A DNA stretch of 64,000 nucleotides from a virus, in IMG/VR virus record IMGVR_UViG_3300024262_000015, positions 64,001 through 128,000 of that record. One strand, 5' to 3'. The translations under genes were made by a program, and so were the position numbers. The first letter of the stretch is position 1, and each line of letters begins with the position of its first letter. Positions 1-15,774 of the stretch are shown piece after piece. Under the pieces are notes generated by a model. It was not told where the DNA came from, searched no databases, and saw only the letters and a list, made by a program, of their open reading frames with translations.

Positions 1-128
1 ATCACGAACGAGAAAAATTGTTTGCAGAATTTTTAGTACAAGAAAACCTTTTAACTAAAGAAGAAGCAAAACAAATCTCTCTAGCAGCCAGACCCCCTCC
101 GTTTGCTCCTAAAAGCCAAAGAAGATAA
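1..128 (+). CDS. 3' end of a hypothetical protein entering from upstream of the window
   Basis: Frame open from position 3 (HEREKLFAEFLVQENLLTKEEAKQI...) to TAA at 126-128. Confidence 0.6.
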   Translation, partial: HEREKLFAEFLVQENLLTKEEAKQISLAARPPPFAPKSQRR

Positions 129-131
129 ATG

Positions 132-400
132 TTATTTTAACCTAGCCAATTTCTTTCGCTCTGTCCAAGACATTCTTTCCCCCGTTTCATATCCCAACGC
201 TTTAAGCTCTAAATATTTTTCATGCTTCCGGGTTAAATAAACATTAGCATCCTTGTAGATCCAATGAAGAAATTTATAGGCTTGATGATTGCTTGTTTTC
301 TATGAACATTAACTATCGTCCCTATCTTAGAAATAGAAGTTCCCTTGTTATATTCCTATATGATGATGTGCTTGGTATTTTCTGACATTCATAGGAAATC
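132..400 (-). pseudogene. Degraded LAGLIDADG-type homing endonuclease remnant
   Basis: Minus strand reads QAYKFLHWIYKDANVYLTRKHEKY, typical of LAGLIDADG C-termini. Upstream the frame hits TAG, and an HTH-like EYNKGTSISKIG lies in another frame. Confidence 0.5.
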
Positions 401-491
401 TTAGCATGTTTTTGAATGCTTACAAAATCTTATACAGGACTTAAATGAAAAATCGAAAACCTCAACAATATCAAGGAGTTATATCCTAAAA

Positions 492-1172
492 TTGGTACAA
501 ACAGGTTACGGGTTACCCATGAGTTGGCCTGTAGACCCTAATTCAACCTTTCAACCAGGCCAAATAGCACAACTGGGAGCGCTAGGTAATAACATCGTCT
601 GTGGTGTTTCTGATGGTACGGCTCCTATTGGTATTATAGATGATATCAAAACAAAGGCCTTCACCGCTCCCTCAATTAATGAGGTTGTCATTGCTCCCGC
701 TATTGGTGAACGTAGAGACGGCCAAATCGTTTCTATCCATGACGTTAATGCTCTATTAAAGAACTCTAATATCACAGCATCAAGCTTCATTAGCGACCCC
801 GTAAGTGTAGAATTGGTCCCTAAAAATGGAGTCATCATCTTTCCTGCTGGTACCCCTCTAAACTTTTCTCTAGAAGGAACCGGTAACTTCGACTCTATTC
901 GAACCGTTGTTAACTACACCTATCAAGTCCCCAACGTGCCTGGTGATGATACAACCCAAGCGTCTGGCCATGTAACAGTCTGGTTTCAACGTATGATCTT
1001 TCAAACCGATCAGTATGAAACCAATCAACGTTATGCTCTAGGAGATAACGTGTTTGTTAATGAATCCGGACTCCTAACTAGCAGACAGGTAAGCGCTATT
1101 AATCCTGGAGTTGGGCTTATTACTGGCCCTCCCACGAGTCCTTTTAGTATGATAGAGTGCTTGTGGTTGTGA
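492..1172 (+). CDS. Putative capsid decoration/cement-like protein (paralog of 3610 and 10372 ORFs)
   Basis: 226 aa ORF. Shares PIGIIDD / TVW..F.TD..E / Y..GD..F blocks with the ORF directly upstream of MCP. Start may be ATC at 483. Confidence 0.55.
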   Translation: MVQTGYGLPMSWPVDPNSTFQPGQIAQLGALGNNIVCGVSDGTAPIGIIDDIKTKAFTAPSINEVVIAPAIGERRDGQIVSIHDVNALLKNSNITASSFISDPVSVELVPKNGVIIFPAGTPLNFSLEGTGNFDSIRTVVNYTYQVPNVPGDDTTQASGHVTVWFQRMIFQTDQYETNQRYALGDNVFVNESGLLTSRQVSAINPGVGLITGPPTSPFSMIECLWL

Positions 1173-1284
1173 TTACTCCACTCCCTACAAGGCCATTTTG
1201 GAACTTAGAGGTAGCTGCCTGCTGGTCATACAAATAAAAGCTTTTAAAATTTGCTAAACGCTGCTCTGGTGTTATAGTAAAGAT

Positions 1285-2406
1285 ATGTTCATTTATAAAG
1301 TTACACATAAGGTAAGTAAAAGAGTTTATGTTGGCCAAGCTATTGATGTGAAAAAGCGTTGGGGTGAACATAAAACCAAGGCTCGTGCTGTTTTGCGAGG
1401 GGATAAGACTATTGAAAATAAAGATATTCAAAAATTTCATGTTGCCTTAGCTAAAGAGGGTTTAGAGAATTTTGTATTTGAAATTATCGAGCCTGTTAAG
1501 AGTCGTAACTTAGCAAATGAACGAGAGGCTTATTGGATGGGGTTTTATAGAGCCTCAACCGAAGGATATAATGGAAGTCCCCGAGTTTGTGGGTTAGAAA
1601 AACATTCGGAAAAAACACTTCAGCTACTAAAAAGCAATTGGGCCAAAGATCATCCTCCAGAATCCATAGAAAAAACGGCCGAAGCAAATCGCGGGAGGAT
1701 AATGACCGATGAGCAAAAACGAAAAATCTCAGAAGCCAACAAAGGCAATCAAAATTGTTTAGGAACCAAGCAATCTCAAGAAACAATTAATAAACGCCGA
1801 ATTGTACAAGCCAAAAATTATGGTCCTAAGCTATGTTCTGCTCCGGACTGTGAGAGAACGGATGGTTTCAAGGTCAAAAGCGAAACCTTTTACTGTCAAA
1901 TGCATGCGGCCCGATTGAGGCTGCATGGGTCTTTGGAAGAACCTATTCGTCCGTCTCCTCCAAACAAAGGGGTGCCGATGTCTGAGGAGACTAAGAGAAA
2001 GGTTTCAGAAGGTCGTAAAGGAAAATGTATGGGTGAAGCAAATCCTTTTTATGGAAAGAAGCATGACCCTGAAACAATGGAAAGAATTCGGCAGCATAGT
2101 TTAGGAAAAGAGCCGCCCAATAAAATTAAGTTTACCCCGGAGCAAGAAAAAGAAATTGCTCATGACAAACGAAGCATGCATGTAGTAGCCAAGGAATGGG
2201 GAGTAAGTCATCGTGTAATATCTCGTTTAAGGAAGGAGCATGGTATCTCTGGGCGTTTGGATAGAAGAATATTTAGCAAGGAAGAGCGAGAGAAAATAGC
2301 TTTAGATCCTCGGATACTTAGAGAGGTAGCTAAGGATTGGGGAGTGAGTCGGGATACAATTAGATCAGTTAAAAAAGAGCATAAACAGCTACTTAATCAT
2401 GTGTAA
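1285..2406 (+). CDS. Free-standing GIY-YIG homing endonuclease with NUMOD3-like repeats and HTH tail
   Basis: FIY...VYVGQ...RWGEH...E...GYN catalytic motifs. Repeats HSEKT, MTDEQKRKISEA, MSEETKRKVSE, GEANPFYGKKH. Two C-terminal VAKEWGVS/VAKDWGVS HTH units. Confidence 0.9.
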   Translation: MFIYKVTHKVSKRVYVGQAIDVKKRWGEHKTKARAVLRGDKTIENKDIQKFHVALAKEGLENFVFEIIEPVKSRNLANEREAYWMGFYRASTEGYNGSPRVCGLEKHSEKTLQLLKSNWAKDHPPESIEKTAEANRGRIMTDEQKRKISEANKGNQNCLGTKQSQETINKRRIVQAKNYGPKLCSAPDCERTDGFKVKSETFYCQMHAARLRLHGSLEEPIRPSPPNKGVPMSEETKRKVSEGRKGKCMGEANPFYGKKHDPETMERIRQHSLGKEPPNKIKFTPEQEKEIAHDKRSMHVVAKEWGVSHRVISRLRKEHGISGRLDRRIFSKEEREKIALDPRILREVAKDWGVSRDTIRSVKKEHKQLLNHV

Positions 2407-2445
2407 GAAGGTGTTCCAAAATTAAGCATATTTTCGAGTTAAAAT

Positions 2446-2688
2446 ATGGATTCAGTAATAAAATATGCTGCTGTTTATAAAACTGCTGTTGAAGAAGAGT
2501 TTAGCTTTGAAGAGGTCAAAGAAGAGGAACCTGAAGGGCTTGACGAAGAATCTTCTAAAGTTATAAGTGCATTAGAACACTTTTCTCCTCGTCAATTAGC
2601 TCTTCATTCAAGTCATGAAAGCCCTTTAGTTAGGGCGGCGGTTATTCCCTACTTAACTCTTGAAGGAGTTTTTAGTGTTAAGAGATGA
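2446..2688 (+). CDS. HEAT-like repeat protein, N-terminal part (KxA motifs)
   Basis: 80 aa ORF with HESPLVRAAVI HEAT-like unit. Overlaps the next ORF in the +1 frame. Confidence 0.55.
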   Translation: MDSVIKYAAVYKTAVEEEFSFEEVKEEEPEGLDEESSKVISALEHFSPRQLALHSSHESPLVRAAVIPYLTLEGVFSVKR

Positions 2689-2995
2689 AGAAGATCCAAT
2701 AGTATTTGAAGCTATAGCTGCGCGTCCAGAAAAAGAAGTTGTAAGGTCTTTAATACATCCTCGTCTTAAAAGGTTGTTTTTCCCTGAGATAATGGACACG
2801 CTCATTGAGGTTCATGGCCCAGAGTTAAAAAAAATAGAGATTTCACATATTCTTAGAAACCTTAAGCAGTATCCGGAAACACAATTAAAAGCTCTTCAAT
2901 ATATCCCGAAAGAACTGTATAAGGATATGGCTAAAGATAAAAGAACATTTTCTTATGAGATGAGGAAAGCTCTCCGAGAAATGGGTAGAAGCTAA
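2660..2995 (+). CDS. HEAT-like repeat protein, C-terminal part (frameshift continuation or GTG start at 2675)
   Basis: DEEDPIVFEAIA continues the repeat. AAGGAG lies 6 nt before GTG 2675. Confidence 0.55.
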   Translation: MKEFLVLRDEEDPIVFEAIAARPEKEVVRSLIHPRLKRLFFPEIMDTLIEVHGPELKKIEISHILRNLKQYPETQLKALQYIPKELYKDMAKDKRTFSYEMRKALREMGRS

Positions 2996-3582
2996 TCTTG
3001 CCACACCCGTTCTTTTTTAGGAGTAGAATCTAGCATTATTACTTTGCCCTTAGATCTTGGGGACGGGAGAAAATGAAACCATGCATATTCACAAGCATCC
3101 GTTCCTCCGTCTGTAAAGGACGGTCTATTAGGAAGAACATACATATCTGGCATATGATTTTTTAAAAAGTCATGACGCTTTTGAGACCCAAGAAAATTAA
3201 TTCTTAGTAGCATGATTGTATGAGGGGCTTGGGTTATGGCTTCTTTAATAAATTCTAGAGCATATCTATATGGGGGATTGGTAAAAATCACATCTGCCTT
3301 TGGTTTAGATGATACTTTTAGATAATCGGCTATTTGGTATTCATCAATGGAGCTTTCGAGTGAGTTGATATATTTATTTTGTATCTCTATTCCGGCTGTT
3401 GTGGCTTGAGGAGAGAACTTTTTAATGACAGATAGGAGATGACCACTACCCGCACAAGGGTCCAGGTAAGAGCCAGATGAGGGAAGGAACGGCATCTTTT
3501 CTAAAGCTCTACGGATGGCCCATGAAGGTGTGGGGTAATCGTCTAAGAACATACGGGGAGCGCCTCTTTGGGTTGCTGACAT
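2992..3582 (-). CDS. Orphan SAM-dependent DNA amino-methyltransferase (likely N6-adenine)
   Basis: Motif I LDPCAGSG, GIEI and motif IV TNPPY, with N-terminal DDYPTP. Confidence 0.85.
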   Translation of the reverse strand: MSATQRGAPRMFLDDYPTPSWAIRRALEKMPFLPSSGSYLDPCAGSGHLLSVIKKFSPQATTAGIEIQNKYINSLESSIDEYQIADYLKVSSKPKADVIFTNPPYRYALEFIKEAITQAPHTIMLLRINFLGSQKRHDFLKNHMPDMYVLPNRPSFTDGGTDACEYAWFHFLPSPRSKGKVIMLDSTPKKERVWQD

Positions 3583-3609
3583 AGGGGAGAGCTTAGCAGG
3601 GAGTTAATA

Positions 3610-3996
3610 GTGTTTCAAGTAAGAGAAGCGACCGGAAAGCCATCACGTTATTTCCCTCACCCAGATTATGATTTTAAGGCGGGGTCTCCAGTTTCTATAG
3701 ATGATAATGGGTTAGTGGTACCTTGCTTATCTAATTCTCCTATAGGAATAATAGGAGGCGATTGTGATAGTGGTATGTATTCAATATCGCCTGAAAATTT
3801 TGTATATGTTTGGACTTGTAGGATCTTATTTGATACGGACAATATAGAGGATGGGGCTTATTTTAGTGGAGATTTGTTATATATAAAAGATGGTAAATTT
3901 ACTAGGATAATTCAGGGACCGGAGCTTTTAGCGGTAGGAAGAGTGGTTGTTGCTAATGAGGCTAAGTACCCTTGTATTACGGCGTTGGTGTTTTAA
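3610..3996 (+). CDS. Short paralog of the decoration-like protein
   Basis: PIGIIG, VWTCRILFDTDNIE and YFSGDLLY match blocks of the 492 ORF. Confidence 0.55.
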   Translation: MFQVREATGKPSRYFPHPDYDFKAGSPVSIDDNGLVVPCLSNSPIGIIGGDCDSGMYSISPENFVYVWTCRILFDTDNIEDGAYFSGDLLYIKDGKFTRIIQGPELLAVGRVVVANEAKYPCITALVF

Positions 3997-4064
3997 TTGG
4001 TTCTCTGTTACTAGAATAATATGTAAGGGAGGGATGATTACATCAATTTAAAGGATTTGTTCTT

Positions 4065-4379
4065 ATGGACATGGACAATCGTGCATTAATGGACTCAGAG
4101 ATTTTTCGAGCATTCGCAGCACACGAAGCCCAGAAAAAACGAGAAGAAGAGGAAGCCAAGGATCCATTTAAAGATCGAGTAGCTTCCGTGTGTGAAAAGG
4201 TAAAGGTAGTTGAGGCTTGGGTAGAGTTTGAGAAGAAGGTAAATTCTACTCCCTACTTGCTGTCATACTTTAAGAAAGCCAGGGCTACATTAGATGAGCA
4301 TCCCGAGCTTAGAGAAAAGGTTAATAAGAAATTTCTCATGGCTTTAGATTCATTAAATTTGGAGCAAGAAGATGAATAA
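4065..4379 (+). CDS. Hypothetical protein
   Basis: 104 aa ORF with AAGGA SD, overlapping the next start. Confidence 0.75.
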   Translation: MDMDNRALMDSEIFRAFAAHEAQKKREEEEAKDPFKDRVASVCEKVKVVEAWVEFEKKVNSTPYLLSYFKKARATLDEHPELREKVNKKFLMALDSLNLEQEDE

Positions 4380-7300
4380 ACGAGTAGAGGCAGCGGCACA
4401 AGAGCTAGTTCAAAAGAATAACGCTCGATTAAGCAATAAGCTTTATACTTTGGTATCTGGACTTAAAAAGAAAGGATATGTAAAAGAGGCTGCTGAATTA
4501 GAGCAAGCGGTTTTTAATTATAAGACATCTGAGATCCATCTTTACAATGTATTTGATCGGACCGGTGAAGATTTTTTGGAAGAAGCGTATCCTGATGGTG
4601 GGTATGATGTAGATCCAGAAAGTGAATACGGAAAATTTTATACTCCATTAGAACAGGCTCGAATAATGCGAGAGCTTGTTAGCAAGAGGCCTACTGGTAA
4701 TTTAAATCTTGTTGTTAAAAAAAAAGCTAGCTACATAAAAAAAGCTAGTAAAGAAGCTGAGTATGAAGCATGGGTAGAGGCAACAAGGGCGGCTCATAAG
4801 AACACCTCTTCTGATCCTTTTCCTGAGGAATTTTATCAAAATAATGTATTTAATAAAAAACGCCAATCTATGGGACTTTCTCCAATAAGCTTTGAAAAAG
4901 AAACGGAAGTAACTTCTCAGCCATCTAGTGAATCTAGTGATAGAGAAGTTACTTCTGAACAATTAACGAATATGCTAGCTGAAAATGCCAGAAAACTGTA
5001 TTCGGTTATCACTAAAGAAGGAGTTGAAACAGTAGACGATATCATCAAAGTTAAAAATTTTCTTACTCTATATTATGGTCTTGAAAAGGACGAGTGGACC
5101 GATACTCCAGTCGAATTGGCGGAACCGATTTTGGATGCGGCTATAGCAATAGAACATATAGGTATTCCCAACACCAGTACTGGTCTTAAAGAAATGAAAT
5201 CTGAAGTCAATCAGTGGTTTATGACCGATACTGACATGGATGATAATAAAATCAAAATCTGGGCAAGAAGTGTTAAAGAATGGTTAAGTGATAAAAACTT
5301 ATCTGCTGCACAGATTGAAAAGCTTGAAGAGGATATGGCGAAGATTGATGAGCAATCACGCTCGCTTAAATCTCTAACAGGCAACCCCACAAACAGTCCT
5401 GAATGGTGGCACAACGTCTCAGTAATGGTTAACAACTTAATAAAACAAATCAAAGATGTGGGCTCAATCTTTGATTCAAAAATTGATAACCCGCTAAAAA
5501 TCCTTAAAAATATGCAGACGGAACTTGCTAAGCAGACTACCAAAACCAAAATTCGTTCTATCCTCCCTTCTTCACAAACAACGCCTCTAAATACTGATTT
5601 TGTTGGAATTCCTTTGGCAGTTTATACAGAGCTTACGGGACTCGCAGATACATTAATAGATAACTGGGAGGCCGTTCGCGAACAAATTCAAAGTAATCAG
5701 GATTTGGCTCCAGCGCTTCGCGGAAGAAAAGCTCAAGCAGCGGCGGATAACAAAGCCTTGTGGACTATGTTTAAAGAGGCTTTTTCTCCATTTAATCAGG
5801 GCCAAAAATTCTTGGATTTTCGCTCGGCTGTAGCAGACCACGATAGGCTTCGTCCCTATGGGGACACTCATCTTTCATCTCCTACAGCAATTAGAACTTT
5901 AAGCGCTCTTTCTACAAACCTACTTGAACAAATGCGTAAAGATTACGGCGGGGGAAACCGTAAGCCCCTTCCAAAACCCGGACTTCAAGGATCAGCAAAA
6001 GATCCCGCTCAAGAGCCGGCGGACGAGAGCGTTTCTTTTTTTAATGAGGAAATGGGCTTTAATACTCCCGCTAACTGGGAACCTGGAGGTATAAAAAAAA
6101 AGGCTTTCCTAGAAACCGGCGATCCTCCCACTAGAGGCGCCTCCCCCTCTTCCTCTCAAAGAAGAGGTCCAAGGCGGGGTCCGGGAGTTATTTTACCTGA
6201 GGTAGAAGCTCTTCAACAAACCCTTGTATCATTAGCAAATTTCCTTGCTACAGAAGACGGGCTTAAAAGAGCAACCACATCTCGTGAATTAGGTGGTTTG
6301 GGAGTAGAGCCGAATGAAATAAACAGGGTTATAGCTCAACTTAAACTAGTAGGAAATGCTGACAAAAAATGGGGACCTAATACTAACAAGGGTGTAACAG
6401 GGCTTAAAGATCTTTATAATTTGGCGACTGGGAAAACCGCCGATATCCCTTCTAACATCCATTTTAGATCTACTACCAAACCAGAACTTTTAGAGCAGGT
6501 AAGTAAAGCTTTAGGTTACATAAAAGAAATAAGCAATGAACTTGGAGTAGGTAATATTGCCCAACGTCGTCAAACAGCTACTACCAGTTCTATAATAGAT
6601 AAAATTAATCCAGCCTACCAAACAGCTAACTTGGTTGATTGGGATGTGGCTGTTGGGGAGCCAAGAATAAATGTAATGAGAAAAGACATTTCTTCTTTAT
6701 CTAATTTTGTTAATTTCCTAAGAAATAATAAATGGATTAAGGGAGCGTCTTCTCCTGTAGAATTGGCTTTACTAAAAATGGGACAAGCCCCGATGCCTAG
6801 TGCTGATTATCCAGCAGTTCCAGAAATGGGAGGAGAAGCCTCTAAACCTAACCGCACACCTCAGGTTACTGTACTTCCCCCTGGGTCTCAACAGGCTTCT
6901 CAACAAAGAACTCAAACCAAAATAAAAGAGCAGGAACAGGCCAGACGAAACCAAACGCACACAGGATTTACATTTGGAGACATGACCAGAGCGCTTAAAC
7001 TATTCGTGGCTCGTGGTAGACAAAAAGGATATGGGCGGGAAATGCTTGCGCTCCAGAACCAATGGCTTACGGGTCTTAATAATCACTTTCCAAAATATGC
7101 GCTAGCTCGGCCACTGTTTATAGAAGACATTGCTTTGGTATCAACAGGTCCTCTCCCCGGTCAAGGAAGTCGCCAACAAATCCAACAAGGTCAACCAGTG
7201 GCGGCTCAACCAGGGGCTCCTCAAACAGGCCAGTTACCAGGGAGTCCAGATATCTTTGGTCCAATTTTAAACTTAGGGATGAACGTTGGAGGGGTTGATG

Positions 7301-10371: not shown

Positions 10372-11073
10372 ATGGCTTTAAGATTAGAACAGCCTGGCAT
10401 TCAACCGCTAGGACAATTTGATGGATACGACGACCAAATTGCTACCATTCTTGGTGGTGAAGTTGGAGCGATTGTTGGTATTCTAGTGAGCAATCCGGAC
10501 CTTGCTGCATCTGATGCGGACGGTTCAGATGGTTATATTGGTGCTCCTCCACTACAACGACGTACGATTATTACGCGAAACCTTGTTGCTTCCAACATCA
10601 ATAGGCCTCTAGGGCTTTTGGATGATGGTACGTCTACTGGCTTCTCGTCAACTGGTTACGGAACCCTTTTGGGTGTTGTGGTTGGTGGAACTGCTGGTCG
10701 CCAGTCCGTTGGAGGGGTCGTACTCGGTCCGCCCACCGCACTTGGTTCCGGTAAAATTACTTTCTGGGATAAGCCCGGTTTGTATGCCACCACGCTAGAT
10801 GCGGTTGATAGAGATCCGGTTGACGGACTTCTACCTTCCAACCTAAGTCTCACCGTTGGTTCGCCGCTCTTTGCTACGGATACGGGTCTTTTGACTCCTG
10901 ATGCTGCTGAGAGCTTCGAGGTAGGACTTGTTCTTGCTCGTTTCCTTGAATTCATGACTGATGGTTCATTGGTCAACACGCCGGTTAGCTTGGTAGCCCC
11001 AGTAACTGGCCCCGGATCGCGCCCGCAAACGTTCACCCGAGCGGTTTACGAGTTCTATCCGCCACGCACGTAA
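10372..11073 (+). CDS. Putative capsid decoration protein
   Basis: Directly upstream of MCP, GAGGA SD, Gly/Thr/Val-rich, codon usage like MCP, two DGY motifs. Confidence 0.65.
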   Translation: MALRLEQPGIQPLGQFDGYDDQIATILGGEVGAIVGILVSNPDLAASDADGSDGYIGAPPLQRRTIITRNLVASNINRPLGLLDDGTSTGFSSTGYGTLLGVVVGGTAGRQSVGGVVLGPPTALGSGKITFWDKPGLYATTLDAVDRDPVDGLLPSNLSLTVGSPLFATDTGLLTPDAAESFEVGLVLARFLEFMTDGSLVNTPVSLVAPVTGPGSRPQTFTRAVYEFYPPRT

Positions 11074-11124
11074 GGTGTCTTAGCCCCTTTGGGAATTAAC
11101 CTGGAGGGGCTAAACCCTTTTTTT
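11072..11124 (+). terminator. Long hairpin with U-tract between the decoration gene and MCP
   Basis: TTAGCCCCTTTGGG...CCTGGAGGGGCTAA stem followed by T7. Confidence 0.6.
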
Positions 11125-11168: not shown

Positions 11169-14100
11169 ATGAATATGTTTGATAACAAAGGGCAAATCAA
11201 CGCTGGGTCGTTGCAGGAAGCTCTTGGAACGATTGCGAAGTACGCATCGATTCTTGAAGAAAATCAGCCGTCCAATATGGCAATGGCTGGTACGCCGGGC
11301 TTTGATGAGCAGACCCGGAATGACCTTATCTCACGAGCTATGTTTACCCAAGACGGTAAGTATGCGCTTGCGCAGGTAATGGCCAATCCCAATTATTAGT
11401 AATAACGATTACGCAAATGGGATATAAAATCTGACTATATGCGGGAATTTCCGAAAGTTTTACCTACCCTGATATAAGATATAAAACGGCTAACCATAGA
11501 AGGTGGTCGTCTAGAGTCTGGGTAAGAATGGTAAAAATGAATGACGGGCAATCCGCAGGAAAGACAGACGTTAAAAAGATAGACTTAATAATTCAGCAAT
11601 ATGAAGCTGGATTGAAACCTAATAAGATTGTTGAAAACACTAATTATAATTTGGAAGATGTAATTCAAATTATAAAAACCAATCTTAAATGGGGGAAAAA
11701 TAAGTATCTTTCTAATTTAACTCAAGCTGAAGTTCAAGAGGTAATAAAATTATTTGATAATGGATGGCGTTTGAAATGCAAATTTCTTTAAAGTGAGTTG
11801 TAATTCAGTTACCCAACTTCTAAGATCAAATAATCGTAACCCTAGCTTTGAGTTATAAAATAATGCCTGAATCCTCAACGACTAATACGTCAGACATCCG
11901 GGAAAAAGATAGAACCAAGGGGTTTTTATCTAACCCGGTAATGATAGAGTCTGGTCCTTACAAAAATGTAAGGAGCTAAGCAGAAATGACTTAGCCAGTT
12001 CCCCTGAACTGTAACAAAAATGTTCGCCGTAACTTAGACTATCAGGGAGTGTTCCGTAGAGCACTAGTAGTCGATCCGTTAAATTAGGCAGCGGATCTAA
12101 AAATTGGCTGTATGCTGGAAAACCTAAAAGCTTCAATACTTTAACCTTAAAGCCCTTGCACTAAAGCAGGGTTAAATAAACTAAAGTAAAAATTTGAAGA
12201 TGATATAGACAATCAGCAGGAAAAAGATGAAAAACCCTAGCCTGGACAAAAAGCTTTTGAGAACCTTGTATGTAGAAAAGAAAAAAACTGCATATGAAAT
12301 TTCAGAGCTTTTACAAATAAAACAAGAAGTAGTTATCAACTCTTTAAAAGAGAATAATATTGATCACTCTCCTAAACTAAGAAAATATCGTTTAGTAAGA
12401 AAAGCCCCTTTAACTAGGGAACAAAAAGAAGCGATTATTGGGATGGTTTTGGGTGGAGGAAGAATTGTTTCTCATGGGAGTCGAAAAAAAACTTATCATT
12501 TAGAAACTTCTAATCTTGAAAAGGACAAAGATCTAATCCTTTATAAAAAAGGAACCCTCGGGAATCTTTGTAATTTGATAAGAGAAGAAGAAAAAAAAGA
12601 TAAGAAATTTTTAAAATTGATAACAGCTAATCACCAAGAGTTGAAATGGTACTCAGATTTATTTTATAACAACCATAAAAAAGTTATAAAAGAAAATTTA
12701 TTATACCATGTGTCACCTCGTTCGGTGGCTTTTTGGGCTATGGACAAAAGTTATATGCGAACTGAAGATAATCAATTTTGGATGCGCTTCAGTACGTATG
12801 AATTTTCAAAAGAAGAACATAAGTTGCTTCAAGCTATGTTAAAAATAAACTTCAATATAAGAAGTAAGGTTTGTGAATATAAGTGGAAGGGTAAAGTTTG
12901 TAATTACCTTTCTTTAAATAAACGCAACACTTTATTAATGGCCGAATTAACCGAGCCATTTTATAAAGAAGCTAACAGATACATAGTTCATCTTGATCCT
13001 CAACGACTAGAATGCCAATCTTCAGAAAATAAAAACTCTGAATGATGATACAGTCTGACCTTTACTGAGAAGTAAAGAGCCAAGCAGAAATGACTTGGCC
13101 TTGTAACAACCCCTGTGCCTCAGGGTGCTATTCCTCGCTATGACCGGGACATTGATGTCGCTGCGGTTGTCGTATCCAGCAATGGTGCGCCTCCGGAAAG
13201 CCGCGTATTCGGTGACTCGGTTATTGTTCCTGAATTCGAGATCGTTTCTAACCCGACCATCCGTACCTCTGAGGTTCGGCGTCGGCGCTTTAACGTAATC
13301 GACCGTGCTGTTCAAAAGGCACGTCAGGAAATCATGGCGCAGGAGGATGCGAATGGTTTTGCTTCACTCGATGCGGCAGCCGAAGTCGAAAATATCCCTC
13401 AGGATATTGCCGATAGCGGTCTTCTAAAGCGAGATCTTGCTGCGATTAAGCGGCAGGTTGACCATTGGGACCTAGTGACGACCAAGTTCTTCATGAACAT
13501 CAATGAGTTCACGGACATCCTTAACTGGGGTTCCGGTGGTGGTCAGGGCGCAACTGGTGGCGACGTTGATCCTGTTGGAAATCACTATAATTAGTGATAG
13601 TGGCAGCCTTAAGAATGTGAATTCTTTTGGAAAAATTTGGCTATATGCTGGAACCTCCGAATACCTAACAACTTTAAAGATATAGATTAGTCATTGAAGA
13701 CAATCTTTAAAAGATAAAGCAAAAGGTTAGGATGAAACGGACAATCAGCAGGAAAGTTAATGAAAATTTACCAACTAGCGAAGTTAAAAAACTTTTCTTT
13801 GAGGAAAATAAAAGCCGCTTAGAAATTGCCGAGATTTTTAATACTAATAGTTCTTCTATTTCAAAAATTTTGGGTCGGCCTCCCTACCCAAAAAACAAAA
13901 TAGAAGAAATAAAATCTTTGCATATTTCTCAGCTACAAAAGGAATTTATAATTGGCTCTACTCTGGGAGACGCTTCTTTACTTAAAAGAATTAATTTCAA
14001 AAATTGTTCTTTTAAAGTTAGCCATTGTGAAGCGCAAAAAGAGTACTTGTTATGGAAAGCTGATTTTTTAAATCCTTTTGTAAATAGTGTGGCGAGAAGT

Positions 14101-14901
14101 AAAGACAAAAGAGGAAACTCTATAATGTATGGTTTTACTTCATTAAGTCATCAGGACTTTTATCCCTTAAGAGAAATGTTTTATAAAGATAAAATAAAAG
14201 TTGTTAAAAAAGATATTCAAGCTTATTTAACTCCTTTTGCTTTAGCTATTTGGTTTATGGACGACGGTACGGTTTTGAGAAGTGATTGTAGGTTATCTAC
14301 CGACAGTTTTACTTATCAAGAAAACCAACTTTTATCTCAAATGTTAAAAGAAAATTTTGGGTTTAATGTTAAGGTTAGAAAATATATTAGAAATAATAAA
14401 CGTTTTAACTTCCTTTCTTTTACCCAACCTGACCGTCCTAAGCTTAGAGATCTCATAAAGCCTTTTTTGGTAGAATGTATGAGCTATAAGCTTCCTTAGC
14501 CTCCTCAACGACTATATGCCAAACATCTCGTTAAAGAGATGATGATATAGTCTGACCTTTACTGAAAAGTAAAGAGCCAAGCAGAAATGACTTGGCAGGG
14601 ATTTATCCCTTAACAAAAGTGTACGCAACGTGAAATTCTTCAGACTGGGCTTTATGCTCATCTCTGGGGTGCTGATATCATTGTTTCCAAGGTTGTTCCT
14701 CCGGGTACTGTCTTTGGTTGTGCTGACCCTGAGTTCGTAGGGGTTATGCCGATTCGTCAGGACATTGAAGTAATGCCTGCCGATGAGCCGAAACAACTCA
14801 AGCTAGGTTGGATCGTTTCTGAAGAAATTGGTATCGCAATCGTCAACCCGCGTGGTTGTTCCAAGGGTCTAAAGAGCTTGGTTATTAACCCCGCTCCCTA
14901 A
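11169..14901 (+). CDS. Major capsid protein (HK97-like fold), spliced from exons 11169-11391, 12023-12079, 13116-13575, 14622-14901; 339 aa
   Basis: Joined exons give a continuous 1020-nt frame ...MANP-I-RRNLDYQGVFRRALVVDP-L-PQGAIPRY...GDVDP-V-TQREILQTGLYAHLWGADII...EEIGIAIVNPRG. Strong SD (AGGAG) and a downstream terminator. Confidence 0.88.
11392..12022 (+). mobile_element. Group I intron 1 in MCP
   Basis: P ATGCGGGAA, Q AATCCGCAGG, R CTCAACGACTA, S GATAGAGTCT, P3 CTGAC/GTCAG, terminal G 12022. The 5' boundary is inferred from the reading frame. Confidence 0.85.
11528..11856 (+). pseudogene. Remnant intron-encoded endonuclease (HTH repeats only, frameshifted)
   Basis: IIQQYEAGLKPNKI and EVIKLFDNGW are HTH-like. 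It continues out of frame as ANFFKVSCNSVTQLLR. No LAGLIDADG motif remains. Confidence 0.6.
12080..13115 (+). mobile_element. Group I intron 2 in MCP
   Basis: P1 GATCCGT/GCGGATC with U-G at the splice site, P ATGCTGGAAA, Q AATCAGCAGG, R CTCAACGACTA, S GATACAGTCT, P3 TTGGC/GCCAA, terminal G 13115. Confidence 0.92.
12227..13045 (+). CDS. Intron-encoded LAGLIDADG protein with N-terminal HTH and degenerate catalytic motifs
   Basis: IIGMVLGGG and VAFWAMDKS align with IIGSTLGDA and LAIWFMDDG of the intron 3 ORF. Confidence 0.85.
   Translation: MKNPSLDKKLLRTLYVEKKKTAYEISELLQIKQEVVINSLKENNIDHSPKLRKYRLVRKAPLTREQKEAIIGMVLGGGRIVSHGSRKKTYHLETSNLEKDKDLILYKKGTLGNLCNLIREEEKKDKKFLKLITANHQELKWYSDLFYNNHKKVIKENLLYHVSPRSVAFWAMDKSYMRTEDNQFWMRFSTYEFSKEEHKLLQAMLKINFNIRSKVCEYKWKGKVCNYLSLNKRNTLLMAELTEPFYKEANRYIVHLDPQRLECQSSENKNSE
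13576..14621 (+). mobile_element. Group I intron 3 in MCP
   Basis: P1 CTGT/GCAG with U-G, P ATGCTGGAA, Q AATCAGCAGG, R CTCAACGACTA, S GATATAGTCT, terminal G 14621. Confidence 0.92.
13732..14499 (+). CDS. Intron-encoded two-motif LAGLIDADG homing endonuclease with N-terminal HTH
   Basis: IIGSTLGDAS and LTPFALAIWFMDDG motifs intact. EIAEIFNTNSSSISKIL is an HTH. Confidence 0.92.
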   Translation: MKRTISRKVNENLPTSEVKKLFFEENKSRLEIAEIFNTNSSSISKILGRPPYPKNKIEEIKSLHISQLQKEFIIGSTLGDASLLKRINFKNCSFKVSHCEAQKEYLLWKADFLNPFVNSVARSKDKRGNSIMYGFTSLSHQDFYPLREMFYKDKIKVVKKDIQAYLTPFALAIWFMDDGTVLRSDCRLSTDSFTYQENQLLSQMLKENFGFNVKVRKYIRNNKRFNFLSFTQPDRPKLRDLIKPFLVECMSYKLP

Positions 14902-14926
14902 GATCAATAGGTAAGAACGAAAGATG

Positions 14927-14959
14927 AAAAGGCCTGGGTGTTCCCAGGCCTTTTCTTTT
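14927..14959 (+). terminator. Rho-independent (possibly bidirectional) terminator after MCP
   Basis: AAAAGGCCTGGG-TGTT-CCCAGGCCTTTTCTTTT. Confidence 0.9.
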
Positions 14960-14980
14960 GTTTTCTGCAAACACCCAGGT

Positions 14981-14994
14981 CAATATAAAGGTAT
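14981..14994 (+). promoter_or_regulatory. Example of the recurring putative phage promoter (CAATAT-N4-GTAT)
   Basis: Similar elements at 2426, 22618, 24162, 31566, 34231, 35862 and 49802, each 20-23 nt before a start codon. Confidence 0.5.
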
Positions 14995-15003
14995 AAAAAG
15001 GAA

Positions 15004-15774
15004 ATGGGAATTAAATTATCCTTGCCTGAAAAAGCCAAGCTGGCAAAATTAGCCGCTTCCGATTTTAAACAGTATGTTGATTGGGGACGAAAAGACTGTC
15101 CTTCACAACAAAGCTATGAACTCTCTTGCTCTCCTAATCCAGATTTTTCTGATTTAAGAATCGAGGCTTTTAATAAATTAGCTACCCCACAAACGCCCAT
15201 TACCAAACTAGCTTTTGATACTCGTCGTATTGACCCTAAAGCTCGTAACCCTAGAGGTAACCTACAAAATTGGAAACGCAGTGCACCGTTTGTTACCAAT
15301 GATGATAAGGAAAAACTAGGCAAGTTTGGAAAAGTCTTTATAGCTACCAAAGAGTTAAAGACAGAGCTTGAAGGACAACAGGGGTGGTTTGATAGCTTTG
15401 CGCGGCTTCTTTACGATACATTACATAGAACTTTACGTAAAAAACAAGGAACAGTAGAGATTTCTCAACCTCAATTTTCTTATCTTGAACAGCTTCTTTT
15501 TAATAGATATCGAATAAGCATGGAAGATGTGGAAAGTTTATCTAATTCCGAACTTCAAAAACGCATTCTATCTAAAGATGAAGAACTTTTGGAACAAGCT
15601 CAGAGCCTTAGAAAGGATGGCAAAATCCCTTCTGATTTGCAAACTTTCTCTAAGGAGATTAAAGAGGAATCTGCGTCAGCAAAAGAAATCGTAAACAACC
15701 TTTTTAAGAAAATAACCTCAGGAAATGGAACGAGAACAATAACAATAACCATTTCCAATCAAGAGGTTAAATAA
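15004..15774 (+). CDS. Hypothetical protein with repeated KLA motifs
   Basis: 256 aa with AKLAKLAAS, NKLAT and TKLAF. Confidence 0.75.
   Translation: MGIKLSLPEKAKLAKLAASDFKQYVDWGRKDCPSQQSYELSCSPNPDFSDLRIEAFNKLATPQTPITKLAFDTRRIDPKARNPRGNLQNWKRSAPFVTNDDKEKLGKFGKVFIATKELKTELEGQQGWFDSFARLLYDTLHRTLRKKQGTVEISQPQFSYLEQLLFNRYRISMEDVESLSNSELQKRILSKDEELLEQAQSLRKDGKIPSDLQTFSKEIKEESASAKEIVNNLFKKITSGNGTRTITITISNQEVK

What the first reader, a model, noticed from the sequence alone, without database searches (positions are those of the whole stretch)
11169..14901. Major capsid gene split by three group I introns
Seen: three complete group I cores with covarying P3 (CTGAC/GTCAG versus TTGGC/GCCAA) and P4 (TGCGG/CCGCA versus TGCTG/CAGCA). 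Removing them restores a 339 aa capsid frame, and the ORF track misses exons 2 and 4 entirely. Established: phage group I introns mostly sit in nucleotide-metabolism, polymerase, terminase or lysin genes. Three in the most highly expressed structural gene makes capsid output depend on three splicing events.
Basis: partly seen in the sequence, partly recalled or inferred. Interest (0 to 1): 0.78.

Follow-up and report, generated by a model that had tools for sequence, protein, structure and literature searches.

The report
Huge-phage capsid gene with three introns
The coat-protein gene of this uncultured huge phage is interrupted by three related self-splicing (group I) introns that must be cut out of the RNA to make the protein; this is real, but the same kind of thing is already published for other phages.

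Summary
The window is part of a 139.6-kb IMG/VR virus record rated 33% complete. Region 11169-14901 (+) holds one HK97-type major capsid gene in four exons: 11169-11391, 12023-12079, 13116-13575 and 14622-14901. They join to 1020 nt / 339 aa without stops. The product is 279/337 identical to an intronless homolog, with gaps only at the end.

The three inserts are 631, 1036 and 1046 nt and belong to one group I intron family.
- The stated P3 and P4 covariation is real.
- A model built only from relatives' introns hits the window exactly three times (E 4e-27 to 2e-19).
- Rfam's own threshold is missed (47.6 and 32.7 bits against 50; intron 1 gets no hit).

The endonuclease genes are at three stages of decay. 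Intron 3 has an intact I-SceI-like LAGLIDADG gene. Intron 2's has lost both catalytic Asp residues. Intron 1 keeps only an N-terminal remnant.

One oddity: the only homolog-like join at intron 1 puts an A-U pair, not the usual U.G, at the 5' splice site.

No RNA data exist, so splicing is inferred. Capsid-gene introns are published (LittleE, crAss-like Zeta group), and this scan has found multi-intron capsid genes on other DNA. It is a new member of a known kind.

The parts
11080..11113 (+). Terminator-like hairpin after the upstream head gene (10372-11073); it marks the upstream edge of the capsid-gene unit
   Evidence: 14-pair stem followed by a T run
11169..11391 (+). Capsid gene exon 1 (223 nt; Met1 to the first base of the Ile75 codon)
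   Evidence: aligns to residues 1-74 of the intronless homolog P0001 (68% identity)
11392..12022 (+). Group I intron 1 (631 nt). P1 is ATCCCA/TGGGAT with an A-U pair at the splice site; the last base is G
   Evidence: (93.8 bits, E 1.6e-19)
11528..11791 (+). 87-codon ORF in intron 1: N-terminal helix-turn-helix remnant of a LAGLIDADG endonuclease gene. The catalytic core is deleted
   Evidence: aligns only to the N-terminal columns of the full-length enzymes; the intron 1 row is gapped across about 610 columns that encode the core; no LAGLIDADG hit
12023..12079 (+). Exon 2 (57 nt mini-exon)
   Evidence: 19/20 identical to P0001 residues 75-94
12080..13115 (+). Group I intron 2 (1036 nt). P1 is GATCCGT/GCGGATC with U.G; P10 is TGCCT/AGGCA
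   Evidence: RF00028, 32.7 bits, E 1e-5; 94 bits. P1 and P10 covary with the exon in L004, L015, L065 and L207
12227..13045 (+). Intron 2 LAGLIDADG ORF (272 aa). Both catalytic Asp positions are replaced (LGGG and MDKS)
   Evidence: PF03161, 1.2e-23; alignment A4
13116..13575 (+). Exon 3 (460 nt)
   Evidence: PHROG 2522, 5.9e-28; 44% to phage G major head protein; 85% to P0001
13576..14621 (+). Group I intron 3 (1046 nt). P1 is CTGT/GCAG with U.G, plus an extra P2 hairpin
   Evidence: RF00028, 47.6 bits, E 3.4e-10; 127.2 bits, E 3.7e-27. An intron at the same site occurs in L207 and L208
13732..14499 (+). Intron 3 LAGLIDADG homing endonuclease gene (255 aa), I-SceI-like, with both motifs intact (LGDA, MDDG)
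   Evidence: PF03161, 5.3e-38; I-SceI, E 7e-14
14622..14901 (+). Exon 4 (280 nt including the stop codon)
   Evidence: 86% to P0001 residues 248-337; PHROG 2522, 2.4e-9
14926..14955 (+). Strong intrinsic-terminator hairpin 25 nt after the capsid stop codon
   Evidence: 13 pairs, 8 of them G-C, then a T run. The weak Thr/Phe-leader hits fall on this same hairpin

Best explanation
This is the single major capsid (HK97-type, phage-G-like) gene of an uncultured huge phage. It is transcribed as one pre-mRNA of about 3.7 kb, lying between two terminator-like hairpins. Three related group I introns interrupt it, each inside one of the most conserved peptide stretches of the protein. Each intron folds into the usual core: P1, P3 to P9, an extended P5 arm, and P9.1 with or without P9.2. 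Each is inferred to splice itself out in the guanosine-initiated two-step reaction. The four exons are thereby joined into an mRNA for a 339-aa capsid protein.

The introns carry I-SceI-like LAGLIDADG homing-endonuclease genes in the P6 loop, and these are at three stages of the homing cycle. Intron 3's gene looks active and would cut intron-less capsid alleles of co-infecting relatives, copying the intron in. Intron 2's gene is full length but has lost both catalytic Asp residues. Intron 1's gene is reduced to an N-terminal DNA-binding remnant.

Shown here: the exon and intron structure, collinearity with intronless homologs, the RNA helices with compensatory changes, and the state of the endonuclease motifs. 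Inferred: actual splicing, endonuclease activity, and the exact 5' junction of intron 1.
For: Gene identity.
- PHROG 2522 'major head protein' matches exon 3 at 5.9e-28 and the last ORF at 2.4e-9.
- Exon 3 is 44% identical to Bacillus phage G gp27, annotated major head protein.
- It is the only match in the 139.6-kb record.

Collinearity.
- Phage G gp27 and P0001 each align as four ordered pieces.
- The joined product is 339 aa with no stops. It is 279/337 identical to P0001, and the only 2 gap columns are at the end.
- Among the 120 listed intronless homologs, the conserved junction contexts are present in 119, 113 and 119.

RNA structure.
- The 5' domain has 32 predicted pairs, 23 with double changes.
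- The 3' domain has 20 predicted pairs, 14 with double changes.
- For P3, P4, P6 and P7 on the full-intron alignment, 97.5% of cells pair, against 25-48% when the partners are slid. Seven pairs show double changes, and 0 of 500 shuffles reach that.
- Model R1, built from relatives only, gives three hits and nothing else in the window. It gives none in the other 80.5 kb of the record.

Splice sites.
- All three introns end in G, and introns 2 and 3 follow U with a U.G pair.
- P1 and P10 covary with exon changes at sites 2 and 3 in relatives.

Endonucleases.
- PF03161 scores 84 and 131 bits against a cut-off of 25. I-SceI matches at E 7e-14. The motif states come from alignment A4.

Composition and assembly.
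- Exon GC is 0.506 and intron GC 0.324.
- One 16.5-kb contig covers the whole stretch at depth 75 with 0 differences. It probably comes from the source sample, so it is not independent.
Against: There is no RNA evidence at all: no listed run holds this DNA as RNA.

Rfam RF00028 does not reach its gathering score (47.6 and 32.7 bits against 50), and intron 1 has no Rfam hit at E <= 10. Rfam's two alignments recruit endonuclease-gene 3' sequence as a stand-in for the 5' half of the model. So the ORF that separates the two halves of the core is my likely explanation for the low scores.

Intron 1 lacks the near-universal U.G wobble at its 5' splice site, and its contiguous P1+P10 score of 8 is within the random-flank control (95th percentile 9). 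Intron 3's P1+P10 score of 7 is also within that control.

The record is a fragment rated 33% complete, so a second, intact capsid gene elsewhere in the genome cannot be excluded.
Confidence: 0.85

Rival explanations
1. Same three introns, but intron 1 splices after U11394 rather than A11391. The product would be 340 aa, with Asn-Phe in place of the conserved Ile.
For: This restores a U at position -1, stays in frame, and keeps the G at 12022 (model B). The exon stretch could still pair with the guide sequence, with one A.A mismatch (read).
Against: 119 of 120 homologs have exactly one residue, Ile, at this place. The alignment score to all five homologs tested drops by 15 and gains a gap. U11394 would face an A, so there is still no wobble pair. 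P10 would no longer abut P1.
Confidence: 0.15
2. The gene is dead. One or more introns, most likely intron 1 with its odd splice site and decayed endonuclease gene, no longer splice, so the contig represents a defective phage or one relying on another capsid gene.
For: Intron 1 has no U.G pair, only 33% of the genome is in hand, and there are no RNA data.
Against: All four exons remain open and 68-95% identical to homologs, with no frameshift. All core helices of intron 1 are intact, and it scores as well as intron 2 against the relatives' model. The contig depth of 75 suggests a replicating phage (contigs only). Only one capsid match was found in 139.6 kb.
Confidence: 0.07
3. The inserts are free-standing endonuclease genes or inteins that split the capsid gene into separately translated pieces.
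For: Free-standing homing-endonuclease genes do occur in this phage group. There is a GIY-YIG gene at 1285-2406, and LAGLIDADG genes sit just downstream of an intact capsid gene in L202.
Against: Exon 2 is 57 nt with no start codon. The exons lie in different frames and are separated by stop codons, which rules out inteins. Each insert carries a full group I core with compensatory changes.
Confidence: 0.02

Closest known systems
Mycobacteriophage LittleE major capsid gene intron (Pope et al. 2013, PMC3706429; abstract and passages read)
   Same: A self-splicing, probably group I, intron that carries a homing endonuclease gene and interrupts the major capsid gene of a tailed phage. The authors make the same point that a very highly expressed gene must be spliced efficiently. 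They showed splicing by RT-PCR and by N-terminal protein sequencing.
   Different: LittleE has one 819-bp intron, not three. Its endonuclease is an HNH enzyme on the opposite strand. The phage is a temperate siphovirus of a high-GC host. No splicing is shown for the present gene.
crAss-like Zeta and Delta group phages: capsid gene split by group I introns (Yutin et al. 2021, PMC7886860; passages read)
   Same: [quoted passage not shown] That makes it a published multi-intron capsid gene. LAGLIDADG intron endonucleases are noted there too.
   Different: It is a different phage order and a different capsid family. The introns were recognised through their protein domains, and in the passages I read no RNA helices or splice sites are analysed. 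The supplementary figures were not visible to me.
Staphylococcus phage Twort orf142 (Landthaler and Shub 1999; only the title was seen, in the reference list of PMC6669764; the paper is not held)
   Same: A single phage gene with three group I introns.
   Different: From recall, the Twort introns are small and lack endonuclease genes. I could not check the identity of the gene.
Jug huge gut phages (PMC12880540; passages read)
   Same: Huge phages (360-402 kb) whose essential genes are often interrupted by group I introns, 18.5 per genome on average. Metatranscriptome reads supported splicing for 37 of 76 predicted introns.
   Different: The genes named in the passages I read are terL, nrdD and the DNA polymerase, not the capsid gene. 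Those introns average about 206 nt. Tables S8 to S12 were not visible to me and may list capsid introns.
I-SceI (PDB 1r7m and 5a0m)
   Same: The intron 3 protein aligns over residues 58-255 at E 7e-14, including both LAGLIDADG motifs. It is a monomeric two-motif enzyme encoded inside a group I intron.
   Different: I-SceI is a yeast mitochondrial rRNA-intron enzyme. The sequence match is distant, and the target and activity are untested here.

Membership tests
Group I intron (Rfam RF00028) | Conserved core helices P3-P4-P6 and P7-P3'-P8, with the bulged P7, in the canonical order | tested here: met
   20 pairs, 97.5% paired, 7 with double changes, 0 of 500 shuffles; 23 of 32 and 14 of 20 pairs with compensatory changes; three hits at E <= 1.6e-19 to a model built from relatives only.
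Group I intron (Rfam RF00028) | Score at or above Rfam's curated gathering threshold (50 bits) | tested here: not met
   no hit at gathering; 47.6 bits (intron 3), 32.7 bits (intron 2), and no hit at E <= 10 for intron 1. The 0.3-0.8 kb ORF that separates the two halves of the core probably accounts for this.
Group I intron (Rfam RF00028) | 5' exon ends in U, paired U.G with the internal guide sequence (P1) | tested here: inconclusive
   met for intron 2 (7-bp P1) and intron 3 (4-bp P1). Not met for intron 1 under the only homolog-like join (A-U). All 10 relatives' introns in the table have U at -1.
Group I intron (Rfam RF00028) | Intron ends in G (omega G), with P10 pairing to the 3' exon | tested here: met
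   G at 12022, 13115 and 14621. Contiguous P10 is 5 bp in intron 2, 3 bp in intron 3 and 2 bp in intron 1 (4 of 5 if one mismatch is allowed, read). P10 covaries at site 2.
Group I intron (Rfam RF00028) | Removal restores a reading frame collinear with intron-less alleles | tested here: met
Group I intron (Rfam RF00028) | Guanosine-dependent self-splicing | not testable with these tools
   No RNA holder is listed. This needs in-vitro splicing or RT-PCR.
LAGLIDADG homing endonuclease (Pfam PF03161; I-SceI-like) | Pfam match above the curated cut-off | tested here: met
   84.3 bits (intron 2 ORF) and 131 bits (intron 3 ORF) against a cut-off of 25. The intron 1 ORF has no match.
LAGLIDADG homing endonuclease (Pfam PF03161; I-SceI-like) | Two LAGLIDADG motifs, each ending in a catalytic acidic residue | tested here: inconclusive
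   The intron 3 ORF has LGDA and MDDG, so the feature is met. The intron 2 ORF has LGGG and MDKS, so it is not met; 8 of the 9 full-length members keep Asp in motif 1 and 7 of 9 keep DDG in motif 2. The intron 1 ORF lacks the domain. That these Asp residues are the catalytic ones is recalled knowledge.
LAGLIDADG homing endonuclease (Pfam PF03161; I-SceI-like) | Cleaves the intron-less allele at the insertion site | not testable with these tools
   Needs a cleavage assay.
HK97-fold major capsid protein (PHROG 2522; Bacillus phage G gp27 type) | Sequence membership and full-length collinearity with annotated capsid proteins | tested here: met
   One source names homolog P0008 'HK97-fold major capsid protein'. 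This Pfam copy gave no hit for P0001 or for the exons.
HK97-fold major capsid protein (PHROG 2522; Bacillus phage G gp27 type) | HK97 fold | not tested

The most novel reading that the evidence does not exclude
Intron 1 is a natural group I intron that splices at a Watson-Crick A-U pair instead of the near-universal U.G wobble. It sits after the first base of an Ile codon that is invariant in 119 of 120 homologs, so the exon base cannot become U. The guide sequence has U where all the related introns have G. In L207, the corresponding intron sits one base further on and has a normal U.G pair.

More broadly, this intron family has colonised at least seven positions in three conserved stretches of this capsid gene across related phages. 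All three window sites lie just downstream of ATCC. That would fit choice, or survival, of sites by guide-sequence pairing (reverse splicing or a splicing-competence filter) in a protein-coding gene.
Probability: 0.4. Interest if true: 0.55.

Novelty: new member of a known kind. Interest (0 to 1): 0.33.

Why it matters
For annotation, gene callers break this capsid gene into fragments and miss the 57-nt exon. The same will happen in many huge-phage genomes, since 9 of the 80 closest IMG/VR relatives also have interrupted capsid genes.

For biology, the phage's most heavily used structural gene depends on three ribozyme reactions. Within one gene it also shows all stages of the homing cycle: an active-looking endonuclease, a catalytically dead one and a truncated one.

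The only point that could surprise a specialist is the apparent A-U 5' splice site of intron 1, and a single RT-PCR would test it. A further point is the clustering of related introns at sites that share the P1 target motif. That is circumstantial evidence on how group I introns reach new sites in protein-coding genes. The review I read says such evidence exists mainly for rDNA (PMC3984707, passages read).

Tried and rejected
Rfam at gathering threshold found nothing in the window or in the rest of the record. In E-value mode, introns 2 and 3 appear only below threshold.

Pfam gave no family for the exon pieces or for homolog P0001, although the protein database lists PF25209 for it. I therefore rely on PHROG 2522 and phage G.

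RNA evidence: no RNA holder was listed. Laying the two DNA runs' contigs showed no joint, meaning no intron-less form among the contigs. X2 holds only short, diverged pieces. Neither result counts for or against splicing.

Alternative junctions were rejected.
- An intron 2 3' site after G13103 adds four residues that no homolog has and breaks the P10 pattern.
- Inteins and separately translated fragments are rejected because of stop codons and frame changes.

A search for closer relatives of intron 1 by its 17-nt P3-P4 signature found 3 IMG/VR loci, none in a capsid gene.

Gene conversion between introns 2 and 3: a 56-nt block from J8/7 to P9.1 differs at only 2 positions (by eye). Over the whole 3' domain, however, intron 2 is no closer to intron 3 (71%) than to its same-site relative L004 (70%), so I make no claim.

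The ATCC test was designed after seeing the data. At site 3 the ATCC is not part of P1, so guide-RNA targeting is not the only reading. Shared endonuclease half-sites or chance remain possible.

The intron subgroup (IA, IB or IC) was not assigned because no subgroup models were at hand. Landthaler and Shub 1999 is not held.
Full report
WHAT THE DNA IS. The window is bases 64001-128000 of a 139,564-bp IMG/VR virus record that CheckV rates 33% complete. By simple proportion that implies a genome of roughly 400 kb. The closest protein relatives of the gene studied lie on contigs of up to 480 kb. The best match among isolated phages is the major head protein gp27 of the 497-kb Bacillus phage G, at 44% identity over exon 3. 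The run that holds the DNA is labelled a subsurface metagenome.

The ORF list for 11169-14901 on the + strand shows three kinds of pieces:
- a 76-codon ORF starting at 11169;
- a 159-codon ORF at 13115-13594;
- a 51-codon ORF ending at 14901.
Between them lie an 87-codon ORF and two ORFs of 272 and 255 codons. The two long ORFs are LAGLIDADG_2 endonucleases (PF03161, 1.2e-23 and 5.3e-38). PHROG 2522, 'major head protein', matches the 159-codon piece at profile positions 88-226 (5.9e-28) and the last piece at positions 275-317 (2.4e-9).

tblastn of phage G gp27 against the region gives four collinear pieces. So does tblastn of P0001, a 337-aa intron-less homolog from the protein database, whose pieces cover residues 1-74, 75-94, 89-247 and 248-337 at 68-95% identity.

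With exons at 11169-11391, 12023-12079, 13116-13575 and 14622-14901, the joined frame is 1020 nt / 339 aa with no internal stop. It is 279/337 identical to P0001, and the only two gap columns are at the C-terminal end. Across the five homologs tested, identical residues number 253-279.

All three junctions fall inside very conserved peptide stretches. Among the 120 listed homologs:
- 119 have MANP, one residue (Ile), then R[RK]NLD[YF];
- 113 have V[VI]DP, two residues, then QGA;
- 119 have DP[VI], two residues, then RE[IVL]LQ.

THE INSERTS ARE GROUP I INTRONS OF ONE FAMILY. Rfam's RF00028 stays below its threshold of 50 bits. Intron 3 scores 47.6 bits (E 3.4e-10), intron 2 scores 32.7 bits (E 1e-5), and intron 1 gets nothing. 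I therefore tested the structure directly.

The 80 closest capsid loci in IMG/VR were fetched; these are the best 80 of 349 relatives. Nine of them have a capsid gene interrupted by 1.05-2.4 kb: L004, L008, L009, L010, L011, L015, L016, L021 and L065. The other 71 show a single uninterrupted match, some cut by contig ends. L009, L010, L011 and L016 look like the same sequence.

I aligned the three window introns with seven of these introns (A1). The helices I call P3, P4, P6 and P7 comprise 20 pairs, and 97.5% of cells pair. Sliding the partners by 1-3 columns gives 25-48%. Seven pairs show changes on both sides, and 0 of 500 shuffles reach the observed values.

RNAalifold on the 5' domain (P4 and an extended P5 arm) predicts 32 pairs, 23 with compensatory changes. 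On the 3' domain (P9, P9.1, P9.2) it predicts 20 pairs, 14 with compensatory changes.

I then built a covariance model from the 3' domains of six relatives only (A5 and R1).
- In the 64-kb window it finds exactly three hits: 127.2, 94.0 and 93.8 bits, E 3.7e-27 to 1.6e-19. Each ends at or within 2 nt of an inferred 3' splice site.
- In the other 80.5 kb of the record it finds none.
- In the 80 capsid loci (754 kb) it finds 10 hits in 9 loci, all inside the capsid-gene interruptions. Six of those hits are its own training sequences.

Helix names follow the standard group I order and are my assignment. The subgroup was not determined.

Exon GC is 0.506 and intron GC is 0.324 (the profile is).

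SPLICE SITES.
Intron 2: the exon end GATCCGT pairs with GCGGATC, with U.G at the junction. The next five guide bases pair with the first five bases of exon 3. Relatives at the same site change exon and guide together. For P10 the pairs are TGCCT/AGGCA in the window, TACC/GGTA in L004 and TAGCT/AGCTA in L207. For P1, GATGCGT/GCGCATC occurs in L207.

Intron 3: P1 is only 4 bp (CTGT/GCAG, with U.G) plus a 3-bp P10. L207 and L208 have an intron at the same codon position, with CCGT/GCGG. That is again a double change.

Intron 1: the 3' end follows the family pattern TAACAA, a few bases, then G. The only join that gives the conserved Ile puts the 5' splice site after A11391. P1 is then ATCCCA/TGGGAT, ending in an A-U pair. 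P10 follows directly, with 2 contiguous pairs, or 4 of 5 if one C.A mismatch is allowed. All 10 relatives' introns in the table have U at -1. In 9 of the 10 the automated search pairs this U with G. In L009 it reports U-A, and a U.G pairing shifted by one base is also possible (my reading of the sequence). In L207 the corresponding intron sits one base later (after AT of the Ile codon) and has a normal U.G pair.

The strict P1+P10 score of intron 1 is 8 and that of intron 3 is 7. Both are inside the random-flank control (mean 5.1, 95th percentile 9). Ten of the 13 introns score 11-14.

The alternative is splicing after U11394. It is in frame but replaces Ile with Asn-Phe and scores worse against every homolog tested. 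I put about 0.6 on A11391 and about 0.15 on U11394. The remainder is failure to splice or something I have not thought of. This is the one real anomaly of the locus.

ENDONUCLEASE GENES. In all members, the endonuclease ORF starts just after P4' and the 5' strand of P6, and runs into the 3' core. The P6 bases AGGA lie 5-8 nt before the start codon in intron 2. I read this as a possible Shine-Dalgarno site masked by folding; that is inference.

Alignment of the nine full-length proteins plus the intron 1 ORF (A4) shows three states.
- The intron 3 protein keeps both motifs (LGDA, MDDG). It matches I-SceI at E 7e-14 over residues 58-255.
- The intron 2 protein has LGGG and MDKS at these places. 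Eight of the nine full-length proteins keep Asp in motif 1, and seven of nine keep DDG in motif 2.
- The intron 1 ORF aligns only with the N-terminal helix-turn-helix part, and the intron lacks about 610 alignment columns of coding sequence.

The two full-length window proteins are 27% identical to each other. The intron 2 protein is 48% and 46% identical to those of the same-site introns in L004 and L065. The closest IMG/VR relatives of the intron 3 protein are at most 41% identical.

So the three introns are not recent copies of one another. Each belongs to a site-specific lineage of one family.

THE CAPSID GENE IS AN INTRON HOT SPOT IN THIS PHAGE GROUP. Reading the junctions gives at least seven insertion positions.
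- Five lie within 17 nt around the MANPIRR codons: L021 first intron; L009; the window; L207; and L008 together with the second L021 intron.
- One lies at the DPL/PQG codons: the window, L004, L015, L065, L205, L207 and L208.
- One lies at the DPV/T codons: the window, L207 and L208.

L021 has two introns separated by a 16-nt exon. L015 has at least two. L207 has three, at nearly the same places as the window. Three introns is therefore not unique even within this family.

In the spliced window CDS there are 7 copies of ATCC, and 3 of them end 2-3 nt upstream of the three junctions. Fourteen of 1000 positions would qualify, and 0 of 200,000 random triples do as well. The test was designed after seeing the data. 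At site 3 the ATCC is not in P1.

Possible readings are:
- reverse splicing guided by the guide sequence;
- survival only of insertions that can still form P1;
- related endonucleases sharing a half-site.
The review I read treats reverse splicing as unproven, with its best circumstantial evidence coming from rDNA (PMC3984707, passages).

WHAT IS KNOWN.
- Capsid-gene introns are published for mycobacteriophage LittleE, with RT-PCR and protein sequencing. The same paper cites one in lactococcal phage Tuc2009 (PMC3706429, abstract and passages).
- For crAss-like phages, a Zeta-group capsid ORF split into five fragments is shown (PMC7886860, passages).
- Huge gut phages carry on average 18.5 group I introns per genome, in terL, nrdD and polymerase genes. 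Metatranscriptome support exists for 37 of 76 (PMC12880540, passages).
- A single phage gene with three introns is in the title of Landthaler and Shub 1999. I saw this only in a reference list, and the paper is not held.
- Earlier notes of this scan report multi-intron capsid genes, up to ten introns, on other DNA (unchecked by me).

VERDICT. The finding is real and correctly read. It is a new member of a known kind. The open, testable points are the A-U splice site of intron 1 and the way the family picks its sites.

Noticed in passing
window 1285-2406 (+): A 373-aa GIY-YIG plus NUMOD3 homing endonuclease gene (PF01541 4e-10, PF07460 1.2e-14, PHROG 314 1.2e-30). No group I signal was found around it (Rfam in E-value mode on 1-4500 found none), so it appears free-standing. 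The flanking ORFs have no family.
   Followed up: partly
L021:1097-3499: This related phage has two introns of the same family in its capsid gene, separated by a 16-nt micro-exon. Each carries a full-length LAGLIDADG ORF. One of those has DNG instead of DDG in motif 2.
   Followed up: partly
L207:526-3354, and L208: A more distant relative, whose capsid pieces are 61-77% identical to P0001, also has three introns in its capsid gene. They sit at almost the same three places. Its first intron lies one base downstream of the window's intron 1 and has a normal U.G pair. L208 has only the second and third introns.
   Followed up: partly
L202:1351-4294, and L203: The closest relative of the intron 3 endonuclease (41% identity) is here a free-standing gene. 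It begins 128 nt after the stop codon of an uninterrupted capsid gene and is followed by a second LAGLIDADG-like ORF. Model R1 found no intron core in L202 or L203. This could be a stage before or after the endonuclease gene's residence in an intron.
   Followed up: partly
window 13044-13099 and 14541-14596: By eye, the 56-nt block from J8/7 through P9.1 differs at only 2 positions between introns 2 and 3, and differs more from relatives at the same site. Whole-domain identities do not support recent gene conversion (71% against 70%).
   Followed up: partly
window 10372-11073 (+): The 233-aa ORF just upstream of the capsid gene has no Pfam or PHROG family. By eye, it shares its N-terminal sequence with the ORF upstream of the capsid gene in L202 (578-1252). 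In phage G the gene at that position is annotated 'capsid decoration'. It is probably a conserved head protein.
   Followed up: no
window 14923-15019 (-): Weak Rfam matches to the Thr and Phe leaders and to MicC (E 0.004 to 2) all fall on the capsid-gene terminator hairpin. I read them as artefacts of that hairpin.
   Followed up: yes
Many lie on 200-400 kb contigs, with up to 7 matches on one 357-kb contig. I did not look at which genes they interrupt.
   Followed up: no
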